From NCBI GenBank assembly GCA_943788915.1, contig CALSSD010000002.1, forward strand, positions 135,812 to 199,811: 64,000 nt of DNA. Reading direction: 5' to 3'. Position numbers and translations under genes: made by a program. The notes under the pieces are model-generated. The model did not search any database, had not been told where the DNA came from, and saw nothing but the letters and a program-made list of their open reading frames with translations. The stretch's first letter is position 1, and each line of letters starts with the position of its first letter. This DNA comes from an uncultured Acidimicrobiales bacterium (GTDB lineage Bacteria; Actinomycetota; Acidimicrobiia; Acidimicrobiales; UBA10347). Of the stretch, positions 23,091 to 28,144 are shown piece after piece.

Positions 23091-23270
23091 GGCACCCCTC
23101 CTCCAGCTTCTCCGGCGGTCACCGGAGCCGCCAGAGTATAGCGAACATCAGCGAAAAAGGTGCATGCCGGGGTGTAGGTCGTGGCCTGCGGTAAGTTACA
23201 GCCACCGGGGTCACGTCCAAGTGCCGATGACATCCCGAATGCTCGAAAAGCCCGTGAAAGGCACCACACG

Positions 23271-23633
23271 ATGGCAAAGGTCACCATTTATCACAACCCT
23301 CATTGAGGTTCTTCAAAGAATGCCTTGGCGGTCGCCGAGGATCTAGGAATCGAACATGATGTTGTGCTGTACATGAAAGAACCGCCCAACGAGGCAACGC
23401 TCAAAAAAATTGTCGCTGGTCTCGAAGACCCCGTAGAAGATCTCGTCCGTAAGGATTCGAAGTTCAAAAAGCTCGAACTGAACCCCGACGACTACGTCGG
23501 CAATCCTGATGCTGTGGTTGCCGTGCTCACCCAGCACAAGGCGTTATTGCAACGCCCGGTTGTCGTCCACGGCAAAAAGGCCATAATTGGGCGACCCAAG
23601 GATCGCATCGGCCCGTTTATCCAAGGGAAATAG
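23271..23633 (+). CDS. ArsC-family arsenate reductase-like protein with in-frame TGA at codon 12, probable selenoprotein
   Basis: ATG 23271 (RBS GAAAGG) MAKVTIYHNPH-TGA(23304-23306)-GSSKNAL continues in frame into ORF 23325-23633 with LVRK, LLQRPVV and IGRP. Confidence 0.85.
23307..23351 (+). promoter_or_regulatory. Bacterial SECIS-like stem-loop
   Basis: Upper stem CCTTGGC/GCCGAGG with loop GGTC starting 23 nt after the TGA; possible lower stem GGTTCTT/AGGAATC. Confidence 0.65.
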
Positions 23634-23704
23634 TCCATTTTTTGGCCCGGTGGAAATACCGGGCACCACTACCCTGTTGTGATCACCCAGGAGGCACCCA
23701 CAAT

Positions 23705-24409
23705 ATGACAAGCCTGCAAACACATACACCCGCCGTACATCTGCCTGAAGAGGACCGGGCGGCATTCGTCATGCGCGTGTATCAACACGTGCTGGCTGCC
23801 ATTCGCGCATTCGTCGCGATCGAAGCTCTGTTCTTCATGACCGGCGTCGCCGAAGGTATCTACAACTTCTTCAGTGGCGGCAAATGGCTGCTCATGATGG
23901 GCCTGTTCATGGGTGGCCAATGGTTCGTCAGCAACGCCTGTCAGTGACCTCGGCAACCCGTCCCGGCAGTACGCCGGCCTGTTCGGCTCATCGGCACTCT
24001 ACGCCGTCATCTTTCGCTCCGATTCCTGCACATCGTCTACTCGGGTACAAGCACTCCGGTTCGACCGTGCAGGCTGCGCAGTCGATCACCGCCATTGGCT
24101 TCGCCATATTGAGTTTCGTTGCGTTCACCACCCGCAAAGACCTGTCGTTTCTGCGACCACTGGTCATGTGGGGTTTCGGCGGCGCAATGCTGCTCATCGT
24201 TGCGTCGCCGTGATCTTTCGGCTTCAACCTCGGCGTTTGGTTCTCGGTAGGAATGATTGTGCTCTCGGGCGCAGCGATCCTGTTCCAGACCCAGTCGATC
24301 ATCCGGACCTACCCCGGCGACGCCTACGTTGCCGCAGCGGTCACGCTATTCGGTTCAGCTTATGACGATGTTCTACTACGTGCTTCGTCTGCTCATGTCA
24401 CGCGACTAA
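23705..24409 (+). CDS. Bax inhibitor-1/YccA family membrane protein, multiply frameshifted
   Basis: DRAAFVMRVYQH, FVAFTTRKDLSFL, GAAILFQT, MFYYVLRLLMSRD* lie in different frames; about 5-6 breaks between 23940 and 24360; RBS AGGAGG. Confidence 0.75.
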
Positions 24410-24471: not shown

Positions 24472-24936
24472 TCAGATAGAACGTTCGATGGCATCGATAA
24501 TGCGGGCATAACCGGTGCAACGACACAGGTTCCCCGAGATCCCAAGCTGGATTTCTTCCCGTGTCGGTGTCGGATTCCGCTCCAGCAGAGCACACGCAGA
24601 CATCAGCATGCCTGGGGTGCAGAAGCCGCATTGCACGCCGCCTGCTTCGAGAATGTTGCGCTGCAGGTCGTGCAGCTTGTCGTCGACGACCAGACCTTCA
24701 ACCGTGGTCACCTGACGCCCCTGCGCCTGCACCGCCAGGTAGGAACATGAGTTCACTGGTTGGCCATCGAGCAGCACCATGCAAGCGCCACATTCGCAGT
24801 CGTCGCAGCCTTCTTTAGTGCCGGTGAGCCCAACCTCGTTCCGGAGCACGCCGAGCAGGTTTCGACTTATCGCGATCGCCAACGGGTATTCGGTGCCGTT
24901 GACACGCAGGTTGACGGCGACGACAGAATCGCTCAT
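24472..24936 (-). CDS. Molybdenum hydroxylase 2Fe-2S subunit (CoxS/XdhC-like)
   Basis: GTKEGCDDCECGACMV, QCGFCTPG, GNLCRCTGY. Confidence 0.93.
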   Translation of the reverse strand: MSDSVVAVNLRVNGTEYPLAIAISRNLLGVLRNEVGLTGTKEGCDDCECGACMVLLDGQPVNSCSYLAVQAQGRQVTTVEGLVVDDKLHDLQRNILEAGGVQCGFCTPGMLMSACALLERNPTPTREEIQLGISGNLCRCTGYARIIDAIERSI

Positions 24937-25826
24937 GACGAAGCTCCAATGCCGAGTGTCCGGTTGACCGGCACAGCTATATGTTCGCCCTGGGCCCGGC
25001 GAGCCGCTGCATCGAAGGCACGTTTCGCCATCACCCCAATGGTGTGGCGCCGGTAATGGTCACTTGCCCGAAGATCCGAGATCGGTGTGGCTTGGTCCGA
25101 CGCTGCAGCTGCGACCATCGCCAGTGCCTGTTCGTCGGCAGGGCGACCAATCAGATCGACGCTGATTGCGACGACTGTCGGGGCAACCGCAGTCAATGCG
25201 ATCTTCGTTGCAGCGATCGTGCCGTCGTCGTTCAGCTGAACCGACGCCGCAGCACCAACAACAGCGATCTCCATCGCCCGACGGTATTCAAGACGAACGT
25301 AGGCGCTGGATGAGCGGTCACGGGGAGTCGAAAGAAAGATAGACGTACACAACTCTGTTGCCGACGCCGCAGTAAGGCGTGGGCCGGTCCAGAGACCAGC
25401 GATTGGCAGTGTCCTCGTGCCGACCTCTGACCGCAGCTCCACAGTTGCATCGAGGACAAGCAGTGGCGCCCCGGTGTCCATCGCAGGTGAACCATTCATG
25501 ATGTTGCCGCCAACCGTGCCCACGTTGCGGGTTGCAGGTGAACCAACCAATGCAGCTGCGTCGGCAAGACCGGGATAACGCTGCACGATGGTCTCGTCGA
25601 CCATAAGCCTGGCATGGGTGACGCCAGCACCAATGGCACAGCCGTCGGTGTTCACCTCGATCTGCGCAAGCTCACGAATACGGTCGATGGCAACCAGGTC
25701 ATCGGGAAGCGAATCGACGCCGTGACGGGCGCCAACAACGAGATCAGAACCACCCGCAACAGGCCTGGCCCCTTGTGCCATGGCCGCAACGGCATCGTCG
25801 ATCGAACGTGCGATCAAGAAACTCAC
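24933..25826 (-). CDS. Molybdenum hydroxylase FAD subunit (CoxM-like)
   Basis: AGGSDL, IGAGVT, RNVGTVGGNI, PISDLRASDHYRR. Confidence 0.93.
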   Translation of the reverse strand: MSFLIARSIDDAVAAMAQGARPVAGGSDLVVGARHGVDSLPDDLVAIDRIRELAQIEVNTDGCAIGAGVTHARLMVDETIVQRYPGLADAAALVGSPATRNVGTVGGNIMNGSPAMDTGAPLLVLDATVELRSEVGTRTLPIAGLWTGPRLTAASATELCTSIFLSTPRDRSSSAYVRLEYRRAMEIAVVGAAASVQLNDDGTIAATKIALTAVAPTVVAISVDLIGRPADEQALAMVAAAASDQATPISDLRASDHYRRHTIGVMAKRAFDAAARRAQGEHIAVPVNRTLGIGASS

Positions 25827-28144
25827 GACTCGCCTCCGGTCCCGTTCGAGATCTCGCTGTGTAACAGTTCATTGGCCGTGAGCCAGACTCGTTCGGCCGT
25901 CATCGGAAGCTGACGCACGGGTTGCCCAATCACTTGGGCGATCGCATTTGAGATCGCAGCCGCGGTCGCCACGTTTGGAGCCTCGGCCAAACCTTTGGCA
26001 CCACGAGGACCAGCGCCCTCTCCCCCAGGTTCGATGAAACACGTTCGAACGGTTGGGGTGTCGGCGGCCGTTTGCAGCTTGTATTCGAGCAGGCCAGGGT
26101 TGAGCTGACGGCCTGTGTCGTCGTACCGGGTGCCTTCGCTGAGCGCCTGTCCGATGCCCATCGTGATGCCACCCTCGATCTGGCCCAGGGCGCCAAGCGG
26201 ATTGAGGATTGTTCCCGAATCGTGTGCTGCACTCACGTCGAGCACTCGGGCGACACCGGTCTCGCGATCAACTCGCACATGAACGGCATGGCACGAGAAT
26301 TGGGGTCCTGCCCATGCAGCGACACCCTGATCGCCGACACAGTTGGTGGCCAACTCGGGATACGGCGCCGGTGTCTCAGATCCTGTCGCCATCAGAAGCT
26401 GATCCCCGGCGGCGATTCCTGCGAGTTCGACGATGGACACGGACTTCGCGGGGGTTCCGGCGACATAGGCGACCCCGGCTTCGAGCACGATGTCGTCAGG
26501 GTCCGCTTCGAGTTCGGCGGCTGCAAGCTCACGAAGCTGTTTGGCAATACGTTGCGAAGCCCCGACGACTGCTCGCCCGTTGTTGATGAGCGTTTGGGAA
26601 CCGGTTGCGCCGGTGTCGTAGGGCCCGGCTGCGGTGTCTTGGTACACGATCTCGAAATCGGTTGGCTTCATGCCCAGTTCCTCGGCCGCAAGGTATCGCA
26701 GCGTCATGACCGCTCCGGTGCCACATTCTTGAGCACCGGTCACGATCTGGCCGCAACCGTCGTCGTCGATACGCACGATGGCTCCCGATGCACCCGGGAA
26801 ACTCGGCCACCACCCGACAGCCACACCAATGGCCTCGTCGGGACCGAGCTCAGTCGCCGGTGTTGCGTTCTCGACTGCAGCGTCGATACAGGCCTGGAGA
26901 CCAATGGCGTCGTACACCTGACCAGCGACCCCGGTGTCTCCCTCGGCCACACAATTGAGCTTGCGGAATGCGACCGGGTCCATATCGAGTAGGTGCGCGA
27001 TCTCGTCGGTATGTGACTCAAGGGCCCAGCATGCTTGTGGGGCCGTCGGAGCTCGGACCGAACCCGACGGTTGGCGATTGGTGTAGATCAGGCTGGCTTC
27101 GATGTGGACATGGTCGACCTTGTAAGGACCAGCTGCATGCATGGCCGCCAGCTGGGGGAAGAACGCAGCGTCGGCAGCATACGCGCCATTGTCGATCAGC
27201 AGCCGCCCCTTACGGGCGGCGATTGTGCCGTTGGATCGCACGCCGGTGGTCAGCTCGACGATCATGCCTTCGCGCCGACGATCCGGTGCGAGGAATTCTT
27301 CGCGGCGAGTAAAGACAAGTTTCACCGGCCGTTTGGCTGCCCGGGCTAGTGCAGCGATGTGTGCTTCGAAGTGGAAACCGCACTTGCCCCCGAAACCTCC
27401 GCCCAAGTGAGGCACGATGATCCGGACCTTGTTGCTCGCCATTCCCAGCGTTTCACAAACGCCGGCACGGGCATCGAATGGCACCTGGGTGGTTGTCCAG
27501 ATGGTGACTTTGTCACCCTGCCATTGCGCCAGAATCGCTCGAGGTTCGATCGGCACCGCGTGGCTAGCGTCGGCTTCGTACCGGCTGGTGACGACATGAT
27601 CAGCTTCGGCCAGGCCAGCCTCGACATCACCTTTGGTGATCGATGAGAACGAGCACACATTACGGTCGCGCACGGTGTCGCCGGTGGCTTCGTAGCTTTC
27701 CCATTGTGGATGGACCAGAGGCGAGTCAGGTCTCAGAGCGGCTTCGAGGTCGGTGACCGCGTCGAGCTCCTCGTAACGCACCACGATTGCGTCGACAGCG
27801 GCATGGGCCTGCTCAAGCGTGGCCGCGGCAACGGCCGCCACGACTTCACCCTCGAAGCGGATCAGGTCGTGGGCGAACAGCTGCCGATCGGGGATTACCG
27901 GGCTGTAGTGAACGTCGGGCACGTCGTGTGCCGTGAGTACGGCCACCACTCCGGGCATGTTTTCGGCAAAAGATGTGTCGACGCTGATCAGTTTGGCCGA
28001 GGCGACCTCGGCGTATTTGAATGCTGCGAACGCCATACCCGCGAGCGCCATATCCGCGGTGTAACGCCCGTTGCCAGTGACTTTGGCCTCACCATCGGCC
28101 CGATCGAAACGAGGCAGTTCAGCAGGAACAACAGGTGCAGCCAT
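25823..28144 (-). CDS. Xanthine dehydrogenase-family molybdopterin-binding subunit
   Basis: KVTGNGRYTAD, LGGGFGGK, GQIEGGITMGIGQAL, GAKGLAE, LPMTAERVW. Confidence 0.93.
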   Translation of the reverse strand: MAAPVVPAELPRFDRADGEAKVTGNGRYTADMALAGMAFAAFKYAEVASAKLISVDTSFAENMPGVVAVLTAHDVPDVHYSPVIPDRQLFAHDLIRFEGEVVAAVAAATLEQAHAAVDAIVVRYEELDAVTDLEAALRPDSPLVHPQWESYEATGDTVRDRNVCSFSSITKGDVEAGLAEADHVVTSRYEADASHAVPIEPRAILAQWQGDKVTIWTTTQVPFDARAGVCETLGMASNKVRIIVPHLGGGFGGKCGFHFEAHIAALARAAKRPVKLVFTRREEFLAPDRRREGMIVELTTGVRSNGTIAARKGRLLIDNGAYAADAAFFPQLAAMHAAGPYKVDHVHIEASLIYTNRQPSGSVRAPTAPQACWALESHTDEIAHLLDMDPVAFRKLNCVAEGDTGVAGQVYDAIGLQACIDAAVENATPATELGPDEAIGVAVGWWPSFPGASGAIVRIDDDGCGQIVTGAQECGTGAVMTLRYLAAEELGMKPTDFEIVYQDTAAGPYDTGATGSQTLINNGRAVVGASQRIAKQLRELAAAELEADPDDIVLEAGVAYVAGTPAKSVSIVELAGIAAGDQLLMATGSETPAPYPELATNCVGDQGVAAWAGPQFSCHAVHVRVDRETGVARVLDVSAAHDSGTILNPLGALGQIEGGITMGIGQALSEGTRYDDTGRQLNPGLLEYKLQTAADTPTVRTCFIEPGGEGAGPRGAKGLAEAPNVATAAAISNAIAQVIGQPVRQLPMTAERVWLTANELLHSEISNGTGGES

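What the first reader, a model, noticed from the sequence alone, without database searches (positions are those of the whole stretch)
23271..23633. Hidden selenoprotein: ArsC with UGA at catalytic position 12 and a SECIS-like hairpin
Seen: the ORF track starts this gene at 23325, but an upstream ATG with an RBS gives MAKVTIYHNPH-TGA-GSSKNAL in frame. A 7-bp stem CCTTGGC/GCCGAGG with a G-initial 4-nt loop lies 23 nt after the UGA, with a plausible lower stem out to 23351. Known: R773-type ArsC has HNPAC12GTSRN plus three conserved Arg, all three retained here (LVRK, LQRP, IGRP). Bacterial SECIS elements typically place a G-containing apical loop about 16-37 nt after the UGA. Sec-ArsC has been reported from marine metagenomes, but Sec use is uncommon in Actinobacteria. 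Inference: this organism decodes UGA as selenocysteine, and standard annotation would truncate the gene.
Basis: partly seen in the sequence, partly recalled or inferred. Interest (0 to 1): 0.8.

Follow-up and report, generated by a model that had tools for sequence, protein, structure and literature searches.

The report
Selenocysteine ArsC gene with conserved SECIS
This is a real gene for a small arsenate-reductase-type enzyme whose catalytic cysteine is replaced by selenocysteine, encoded by an in-frame UGA and a conserved RNA hairpin; the selenoprotein family is already known, so the result is mainly an annotation fix.

Summary
Observation confirmed and interpretation supported. Window 23271-23633 (+) encodes a 120-residue ArsC-family protein (PF03960). 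TGA sits at codon 12, where R773 ArsC has Cys12, and the three catalytic arginines are kept. TGA occupies that codon in 18 of 61 genomes of the same order and in 80 of 80 best public loci; more distant homologues have Cys.

A 7-bp hairpin with a GGUC tetraloop starts 16 nt after the UGA. It shows compensatory changes, its synonymous sites are nearly frozen, and Cys forms lack it.

The genome, an Acidimicrobiales MAG, holds selA, selB, a Sec-containing selD and tRNA-Sec(UCA). selB is split by one extra base in this assembly, but contigs from four other runs lack that base, so it is probably an assembly error. TGA is otherwise the commonest stop.

The family ("Arsenate reductase (ArsC) 1", UxxS) has been catalogued from ocean metagenomes since at least 2008, and this scan met it before on other DNA. 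Public databases mostly hold it truncated (100-102 aa) or with W at the Sec position.

Arsenate reduction itself is inferred. The gene is not in an ars operon, though a second Sec-ArsC paralogue lies near ACR3. It is a new member of a known kind, of modest interest.

The parts
23256..23261 (+). Shine-Dalgarno-like GAAAGG, 9 nt upstream of the ATG
   Evidence: Read from the sequence. Not tested further.
23271..23633 (+). Complete coding sequence of the Sec-containing ArsC-family protein: 120 residues, with stop TAG at 23631-23633
   Evidence: Translation with TGA=U. PF03960 scores 56.9 bits against a cut-off of 24. TIGR00014 scores 98 bits against a cut-off of 106.05. PDB ArsC chains match at E 3e-17 to 1e-15.
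23271..23303 (+). The eleven codons (MAKVTIYHNPH) upstream of the UGA that standard gene calling drops
   Evidence: Across 87 distinct orthologous stretches there are 335 synonymous against 118 non-synonymous codon differences from the window. The stretch aligns with MSNITIYHNPA of R773 ArsC.
23304..23306 (+). UGA = selenocysteine codon 12, at the catalytic Cys12 position of ArsC; motif U-G-S-S (UxxS)
   Evidence: TGA at this codon in 18 of 61 genomes of the order and in 80 of 80 best public loci. Cys stands there in 11 more distant loci and in P0054, P0068 and P0080.
23323..23340 (+). SECIS apical hairpin: stem 23323-23329 pairs with 23334-23340, tetraloop GGUC at 23330-23333
   Evidence: GGTC loop in 80 of 80 loci and 7 of 7 pairs in 78 of 80; third-codon-position entropy is 0-0.85 bits here, against a mean of 1.65 bits elsewhere. 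Cys forms lack the hairpin.
23301..23361 (+). Possible extended lower stem of the SECIS; weak
   Evidence: Seen in the minimum-free-energy fold. Only 67.4% of cells are paired across 18 genomes.
23448..23450 (+). Arg60 codon (LVRK)
   Evidence: Aligned with LLRK of R773 ArsC.
23553..23555 (+). Arg95 codon (LQRP), equivalent to R94 of R773 ArsC
23592..23594 (+). Arg108 codon (IGRP), equivalent to R107 of R773 ArsC

Best explanation
The region is an intact gene for a selenoprotein of the glutaredoxin-fold ArsC family, the catalogued 'ArsC 1, UxxS' selenoprotein family.

**Recoding.** UGA at codon 12 is read as selenocysteine. A hairpin in the mRNA starts 16 nt after the UGA and carries an exposed GGUC tetraloop. 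It recruits SelB-GTP-Sec-tRNA(Sec), which outcompetes release factor 2. This step is inferred from the E. coli fdhF paradigm. The hairpin, the machinery genes and the conservation are shown here; Sec insertion itself is not.

**Enzyme.** The protein has no cysteine at all, so Sec12 is its only redox-active residue. It sits at the position of the nucleophilic Cys12 of R773 ArsC, next to the conserved Arg60/Arg95/Arg108 anion-binding triad.

**Likely chemistry (about 0.55 given that it is a selenoprotein).** A selenolate attacks arsenate. The adduct is then resolved by a low-molecular-weight thiol and a glutaredoxin-like partner. In this actinobacterium the partner is probably mycothiol with a mycoredoxin-like protein rather than glutathione with Grx. 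That step is inference only.
For: 1. **Family and active site.** PF03960 hit and near-cut-off TIGR00014 hit. Residue-by-residue alignment to solved R773 ArsC puts U12 on C12 and keeps all three Arg.

2. **The TGA is conserved, not accidental.**
 - It stands at this codon in 18 of 61 genomes of the order, at protein identities from 99% down to 50%. Cys replaces it in 11 more distant loci.
 - It stands there in 80 of 80 best public loci.
 - The 11 upstream codons are under purifying selection: 335 synonymous against 118 non-synonymous differences.

3. **The hairpin is under RNA-level selection.**
 - 88.1% of cells are paired, and 0 of 500 shuffles reach the covariation score.
 - Compensatory variants exist, such as CCTTAGC/GCTGAGG in 10 loci. 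The loop is GGTC in 80 of 80 loci.
 - Synonymous third positions of codons 18-23 have 0-0.85 bits of entropy. The 37 comparable codons elsewhere range from 1.23 bits upward, with mean 1.65.
 - No equivalent hairpin is seen in 11 Cys forms.

4. **The Sec machinery is in the same genome.**
 - selA scores 388 bits, with selB next to it.
 - selD scores 368 bits and has its own in-frame TGA in the GAG-U-GCK motif.
 - tRNA-Sec scores 69.7 bits and has anticodon TCA.

5. **TGA forms track the machinery.** All 18 genomes with the TGA form have selA, and none of the 16 genomes without a selA match has it.

6. **No reassignment of TGA.** It closes 1415 of 2840 long frames in the genome.

Against: - There is no experimental evidence of Sec insertion or of arsenate reduction.
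- The hairpin's folding energy alone is unremarkable: z = -1.71, and 15 of 200 shuffles fold as well.
- Rfam gives no SECIS match, even at E up to 10.
- TIGR00014 scores 98 bits, under its 106.05-bit cut-off.
- selB is split by a frameshift in this assembly. However, contigs from four runs of four studies lack the extra base, and 8 of 8 congeners have selB in one frame.
- The genome is a MAG with 7.7% estimated contamination, so sel genes on other contigs could in principle be foreign. Congeners carry the same set.
- The gene is not beside any arsenic-resistance gene. ACR3 was not found in the flanks of 80 + 30 orthologous loci, and its neighbourhood is conserved only within the genus, in 6 of 80 loci.
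- No glutathione synthetase scores over its cut-off. The MshC-like and mycoredoxin-like hits are also under their cut-offs, so the thiol partner is unknown.
- Related genomes are not independent samples, so the shuffle and rank tests overstate significance.
Confidence: 0.9

Rival explanations
1. It is a genuine selenoprotein, but its physiological substrate is not arsenate. On this reading it is a general selenol oxidoreductase of the ArsC/Spx/YffB superfamily that only looks like ArsC.
For: It stands alone, with no ars context in 110 loci. TIGR00014 is under its cut-off. A second, ACR3-proximal Sec-ArsC paralogue (44% identity) could be the detoxifying enzyme.
Against: The Arg60/94/107 triad that binds the arsenate oxyanion in R773 ArsC is fully kept. 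The best family match by far is TIGR00014 arsC, at 98 bits against 47.5 for Spx/MgsR and 16.8 for the YffB-type. There is no second Cys for a CxxC-type redox function.
Confidence: 0.35
2. It is a pseudogene: an ArsC gene killed by a nonsense mutation at the catalytic codon.
For: Under table 11 the frame is interrupted. The assembly has other broken genes nearby, such as BI-1 at 23705-24406.
Against: The same TGA stands in 18 genomes down to 50% identity and in 80 of 80 public loci. The frame is intact on both sides, the upstream codons are under purifying selection, and a co-conserved hairpin follows.
Confidence: 0.01
3. The annotated short ORF (TTG 23325, 102 aa) is the real product, and the upstream piece is untranslated leader.
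For: Gene callers choose it. By my count of the table, 81 of the 120 best database relatives are 100-102 aa.
Against: That product would lack the catalytic residue and the first beta-strand of the fold. The upstream 33 nt evolve as coding sequence. The TTG lies inside the conserved hairpin.
Confidence: 0.02
4. UGA is read as another residue, either through a reassigned code (as the W-containing database entries imply) or as Cys inserted at UGA.
For: 9 of 14 fetched database relatives carry W at this position.
Against: TGA closes half of the long frames of this genome. One W-form (P0008) also continues past the usual C-terminus of the family. This looks to me like read-through of the real stop codon under a TGA=Trp code, but I did not check its DNA. 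The aligned residue in homologues is Cys, never Trp. A tRNA-Sec and the full machinery are present. Occasional Cys at UGA under selenium shortage cannot be excluded.
Confidence: 0.02

Closest known systems
Selenoprotein family 'Arsenate reductase (ArsC) 1' (pfam03960 / COG1393, UxxS motif), described from ocean metagenomes (PMC2398784; review PMC9312934)
   Same: Same Pfam family, same UxxS motif (U-G-S-S here), Sec at the catalytic Cys position, and a marine origin for the relatives.
   Different: Nothing essential differs. This copy adds a defined host lineage (Acidimicrobiales), a characterised SECIS and a paralogue. I saw only table passages of those papers, not their sequences or supplements.
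R773 / E. coli glutaredoxin-coupled arsenate reductase ArsC (PDB 1i9d, 1jzw)
   Same: Same fold family (E 1.9e-16). The N-terminal HNPxC motif is in register, and Arg60, Arg94 and Arg107 are kept.
   Different: Sec stands in place of Cys12. The protein is 120 aa rather than 141. It is not in an ars operon. The host shows no glutathione synthetase over its cut-off, so the GSH/Grx partner is probably replaced.
E. coli fdhF SECIS (bacterial SelB-binding hairpin)
   Same: A stem-loop lies shortly downstream of the UGA inside the coding sequence, with an apical loop containing G-U. The fdhF loop sequence GGUC is recalled, not tested here.
   Different: No bulged U is evident in the 7-bp stem. The loop starts 26 nt from the U of the UGA. 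No Rfam SECIS model matched.
'Arsenate reductase 2 / ArsC-like' UxxC selenoproteins and Spx/MgsR regulators
   Same: Same PF03960 superfamily.
   Different: There is no second Cys (UGSS, not UxxC). The Spx/MgsR model scores 47.5 bits against a 75.05-bit cut-off.

Membership tests
Bacterial selenoprotein gene (SelB/SECIS-dependent UGA recoding) | In-frame UGA aligned with Cys in homologues | tested here: met
   TGA in 18 genomes and in 80 of 80 loci; Cys in 11 distant loci and in P0054, P0068 and P0080.
Bacterial selenoprotein gene (SelB/SECIS-dependent UGA recoding) | Conserved stem-loop shortly downstream of the UGA, with G/U in the apical loop | tested here: met
   In the diverse set, 13 of 18 genomes have the GGUC hairpin. 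Three have a shifted stem with a CGUGC loop that also shows a compensatory change. Two have other hairpins.
Bacterial selenoprotein gene (SelB/SECIS-dependent UGA recoding) | selA, selB, selC and selD in the genome | tested here: met
   selB is frameshifted in this assembly, but the extra base is missing from contigs of 4 of 4 other runs.
Bacterial selenoprotein gene (SelB/SECIS-dependent UGA recoding) | Selenium shown in the protein (75Se labelling or mass spectrometry) | not testable with these tools
ArsC 1 (UxxS) selenoprotein family | pfam03960 domain with a UxxS motif at the catalytic site | tested here: met
   PF03960 at 56.9 bits. The motif is U12-G-S-S15. The family definition is taken from PMC2398784.
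Glutaredoxin-coupled arsenate reductase ArsC (TIGR00014 equivalog) | Score over the curated cut-off | tested here: not met
   98 bits against a cut-off of 106.05, scored with C in place of U.
Glutaredoxin-coupled arsenate reductase ArsC (TIGR00014 equivalog) | Catalytic Cys12 equivalent plus Arg60, Arg94 and Arg107 | tested here: met
   Alignment to 1jzw/1i9d, with Sec in place of Cys.
Glutaredoxin-coupled arsenate reductase ArsC (TIGR00014 equivalog) | Genomic association with arsenic resistance genes (arsR, arsB, ACR3) | tested here: not met
   No ACR3 in the flanks of 80 + 30 loci. Only the paralogue on contig 13 lies about 2.4 kb from ACR3. arsR and arsB were not searched.
Glutaredoxin-coupled arsenate reductase ArsC (TIGR00014 equivalog) | Arsenate reductase activity | not testable with these tools
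   Needs an enzyme assay.
Spx/MgsR regulators | CxxC motif and a score over the family cut-off | tested here: not met
   The motif is UGSS. TIGR01617 scores 47.5 bits against a cut-off of 75.05.

The most novel reading that the evidence does not exclude
The window-type Sec-ArsC may be a core, stand-alone selenoenzyme of marine Acidimicrobiales rather than part of arsenic detoxification. It would work with an actinobacterial thiol system such as mycothiol/mycoredoxin, on arsenate or on another oxyanion. The gene, with its invariant GGUC SECIS, would also have crossed into Verrucomicrobiota and still function there. That would imply that the SelB proteins of two phyla read the same tetraloop.
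Probability: 0.15. Interest if true: 0.5.

Novelty: new member of a known kind. Interest (0 to 1): 0.28.

Why it matters
The main value is as an annotation fix. By my count of the table, 81 of the 120 closest database proteins are N-terminally truncated and lack the catalytic residue, and others carry a false Trp.

The case also gives a clean, well-sampled bacterial SECIS: a fixed register, an invariant GGUC loop, compensatory stem changes and frozen synonymous sites. Rfam models miss it, so it could seed a covariance model.

It adds to the evidence that selenocysteine use is common, not rare, in marine Acidimicrobiia.

It does not open a new kind of biology. The family has been in print since at least 2008, and this scan has already reported the same kind on other DNA.

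Tried and rejected
- **Rfam scan.** A scan of 23200-23700 at E up to 10 gave no match. It says nothing either way, because bacterial SECIS elements are poorly represented in Rfam.
- **Folding energy.** On its own it did not separate the hairpin from shuffles, so I relied on comparative evidence.
- **Co-occurrence with a Sec-glutaredoxin-like gene.** I checked whether Sec-ArsC travels with it as a possible selenium relay. The TGA form of that gene turned up in only 6 genomes: 5 of the 9 genomes of this genus plus G025. Sec-ArsC is in 18 genomes. G025 has no selA match, so its TGA may be a plain stop. There is no support, and I dropped the idea.
- **G+C content.** The Verrucomicrobiota-labelled loci (0.55-0.61) fall inside the range of the others (0.43-0.71), so this does not separate mis-binning from transfer.
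- **Earlier notes for this genome.** The search of earlier findings returned nothing for this genome.
- **Not attempted.** I did not fold the protein, because sequence homology to solved ArsC structures is already clear. I did not run complex prediction, because I claim no binding partner.

Full report
**What is there.** Window 23271-23633 (+) reads ATG...MAKVTIYHNPH, then TGA (23304-23306), then GSSKNALAVAEDLG... to TAG at 23631-23633. That makes 120 codons if the TGA is decoded. A GAAAGG lies 9 nt before the ATG. Under table 11 the longest ORF starts at TTG 23325 and gives 102 aa.

The read-through product matches Pfam ArsC (PF03960, 56.9 bits). Its best NCBIfam match is TIGR00014, arsenate reductase (glutaredoxin), at 98 bits, just under the 106.05 cut-off. 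Spx/MgsR and YffB-type models score far lower.

Against solved structures the best hits are arsenate reductases (3rdw at 3e-17; R773 ArsC 1jzw/1i9d at 1.9e-16). In the printed alignment U12 falls on Cys12. LVR60K, LQR95P and IGR108P fall on the three arginines of R773 ArsC (their numbering 60/94/107 is recalled). The protein contains no cysteine at all.

**Is the TGA real and meaningful?** I searched 61 genomes: the window's own and 60 relatives in the same order.

- 18 genomes carry a full-length homologue with exactly one TGA, at protein identities from 99% down to 50%. More distant homologues have no stop.
- tblastn placed the stop at query position 12 in all 18, and a Cys there in 11 other loci. 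One of the 30 loci gave no hit at my threshold.
- A scan of species-representative genomes found 200 relatives. The best 80 (74-92% identity) all have TGA at codon 12. These 80 were ranked by similarity and overlap with the first set, so the two sets are not independent.
- The 33 nt upstream of the TGA behave as coding sequence. Among 87 distinct versions there are 335 synonymous against 118 non-synonymous codon differences from the window, and the peptide xxxVTIYHNPH is kept.
- TGA is not reassigned in this genome. It closes 1415 of 2840 stop-to-stop frames of 300 codons or more.

**The hairpin.** The stem 23323-23329/23334-23340 with loop GGUC is part of the minimum-free-energy fold. Energy alone is not convincing (z = -1.71), but the comparative evidence is.

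- In the 18-genome alignment, 13 genomes have the same 7-8 bp stem and GGUC loop in the same register. Three (G041, G019, G059) have a stem shifted a few nt upstream with a CGUGC loop. That stem itself shows a compensatory U-A to C-G change. Two have other hairpins.
- For the 7-bp helix, 88.1% of 126 cells pair. Seven cells have changes on both sides, against 1.4 +/- 1.1 in shuffles (0 of 500 shuffles reach it). Sliding the partner by 1-3 columns drops pairing to 32-66%.
- In the 80 loci the loop is GGTC in 80 of 80, and 78 of 80 keep 7 of 7 pairs. Variants include CCTTAGC/GCTGAGG (10 loci, compensatory) and CCCTGGC/GCTGGGG.
- Synonymous sites are frozen. Among 91 distinct Sec-form genes, third-position entropy in codons A18, L19, A20, V21 and A22 is 0.36, 0.73, 0, 0.18 and 0.85 bits. 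The mean is 1.65 bits (minimum 1.23) for 37 conserved four-fold-type codons outside codons 13-30. E23 is GAG in 82 of 82, while E24 and E37 use both codons. The rank-test p of 1e-6 overstates significance because the genes are related.
- The 11 Cys-form homologues show no hairpin of this shape at the equivalent place.
- Rfam has no match here, even at E up to 10.

**The machinery.** The window's genome has 33 contigs, 94% completeness and 7.7% contamination.

- selA is on contig 5 (388 bits, over the cut-off), with selB directly downstream.
- selD is on contig 9 (368 bits) with one in-frame TGA in the motif SHGAG-U-GCKLAP.
- A tRNA-Sec on contig 8 scores 69.7 bits, and ARAGORN reads it with anticodon TCA.
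- selB is split between two frames in this assembly.
- Contigs from four runs of four studies, 95-99+% alike, all lack one base at L003:1867, exactly at the frame change.
- All 8 other genomes of the genus have selB in one open frame, over the cut-off.
- The split is therefore most probably an indel error of this assembly. Other genes look broken in the same way: the BI-1 gene just downstream in the window and ACR3.
- Across the order, selA was found in 45 of 61 genomes. All 18 genomes with the TGA form have it, and none of the 16 without a selA match has the TGA form.

**Organism and habitat.** The closest public loci are titled Acidimicrobiales / Acidimicrobiia MAGs. The runs that hold the selB stretch are mostly labelled marine, estuary or seawater metagenomes.

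**What it probably does.** The recoding mechanism is inferred from the E. coli paradigm: SelB bound to the hairpin delivers Sec-tRNA(Sec) to the UGA. For the enzyme, homology argues for arsenate reduction by a selenolate at position 12, helped by the arginine triad.

Context does not help. Upstream and divergent lie an acyl-carrier-like protein, RNase III and an Fpg-like glycosylase, and downstream lies BI-1. This arrangement recurs in only 6 of 80 loci, and no ACR3 lies in the flanks of any of 80 + 30 loci.

The genome has a second Sec-ArsC paralogue: contig 13, 18144-18476, minus strand, 44% identity, motif U-G-H-A. It also carries a GGUC-loop hairpin, 20 nt from the U of its UGA. It lies about 2.4 kb from an ACR3 arsenite-pump gene. 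That copy may be the detoxifying one.

The thiol partner is open. No glutathione synthetase scores over its cut-off. An MshC-like gene scores 414.6 bits (cut-off 485) and mycoredoxin-like genes 64-70 bits (cut-off 89.5).

**Comparison with what is known.**
- A 2022 review lists the same family under COG1393, UxxS (PMC9312934, passages).
- 'ArsC-like' selenoproteins were already counted in 2006 (PMC1794560, passages).
- The BSepDB paper uses an actinobacterial ArsC-like Cys protein to find Sec homologues (PMC13326102, passage).
- A 2026 preprint reports Sec machinery in all 84 Actinomarina genomes (Acidimicrobiia) and does not mention ArsC (passages).
- The B. subtilis 'ArsC U89' in PMC4150793 is an engineered LMW-PTP-type enzyme and is not related.
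- A search for 'Acidimicrobiia' plus 'selenocysteine' gave 2 papers.
- Earlier notes of this scan describe the same kind on other genomes, including one in a marine Acidimicrobiales bacterium with a GGUC loop (e1-3227902).

The gene is therefore a new member of a known family.

**Database state.** By my count of the table, 81 of the 120 best protein relatives are 100-102 aa and cover 83-85% of the query, that is, they are cut at the TGA. Of the 14 I read:
- 9 have W at position 12. I take these for calls made with a TGA=Trp code on short contigs; one of them also runs on past the usual C-terminus.
- 3 are true Cys forms at 64-65% identity.
- 1 is the truncated form.
- 1 is a fragment.

**Verdict.** I put the probability of a genuine selenoprotein gene with a functional SECIS at about 0.9. 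Arsenate reductase activity is plausible but unproven, and novelty is low.

Noticed in passing
G000 contig 5, about 466222 (L003:1867): selB is split into two frames by one extra base in this assembly. Contigs from 4 of 4 other runs lack the base, and 8 of 8 congeners have an intact selB. Three of the four runs also lack 10 bases at L003:3210, near the selB 3' end.
   Followed up: yes
window 23705-24406 (+): The Bax-inhibitor-1 family gene just downstream is broken into several frames relative to the intact 235-aa orthologue of a congener. It is either a pseudogene or a stretch with assembly indels.
   Followed up: partly
G000 contig 13, 18144-18476 (-) (L141:6130-6492): A second Sec-containing ArsC paralogue (MTLYFNPG-U-GHARG, 44% identity). 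It has a GGGGC/GCCCU stem with a GGUC loop 20 nt from the U of its UGA, and lies about 2.4 kb from ACR3.
   Followed up: partly
G000 contig 13, 14804-15791 (+): The ACR3 arsenite efflux gene (310 bits) appears split into two frames near its 3' end.
   Followed up: no
G000 contig 9, 107871-108788 (+): Selenophosphate synthetase with an in-frame TGA at the SHGAG-U-GCK position, followed by a strong hairpin. A second selD-like match lies in a 736-aa open frame on contig 10, 570999-571892.
   Followed up: partly
G000 contig 10, 275560-275934 (-) (L142:761-1135): A glutaredoxin-family protein with a hydrophobic N-terminal stretch (possibly a membrane anchor; not tested) and a U-P-F-C motif, so a candidate selenoprotein. 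The TGA form was seen in 5 of the 9 genomes of the genus plus G025. G025 has no selA match, so its TGA may be a plain stop.
   Followed up: partly
L055, L105, L120, L126, L127, L128 (public MAG contigs): Six contigs titled Verrucomicrobiota carry the same Sec-ArsC at 74-83% identity, with the GGTC-loop hairpin. Five cluster together (SH-aLRT 80, weak), and one sits among the Acidimicrobiales sequences. Four of the five genomes checked have a tRNA-Sec over the cut-off. The cause could be transfer between phyla or mis-binning; I did not resolve it.
   Followed up: partly
L032, L036, L037 (G041, G019, G059): An alternative SECIS shape in three genomes: a stem CAAUGC/GCAUUG (CAACGC/GCGUUG in G019, which is compensatory) with a CGUGC loop, a few nt closer to the UGA.
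   Followed up: partly
database proteins P0004, P0008, P0011, P0020, P0023, P0032, P0038, P0044, P0066: Public protein sets hold this family with W at the Sec position. I take these for gene calls made with a TGA=Trp code on short metagenome contigs. P0008 also runs on past the usual C-terminus.
   Followed up: yes
window 24472-28144 (-): Three consecutive ORFs look like the small (2Fe-2S), medium (FAD) and large (molybdopterin) subunits of a CO-dehydrogenase / xanthine-dehydrogenase family enzyme. I judged this by eye from the translations; no family search was run.
   Followed up: no
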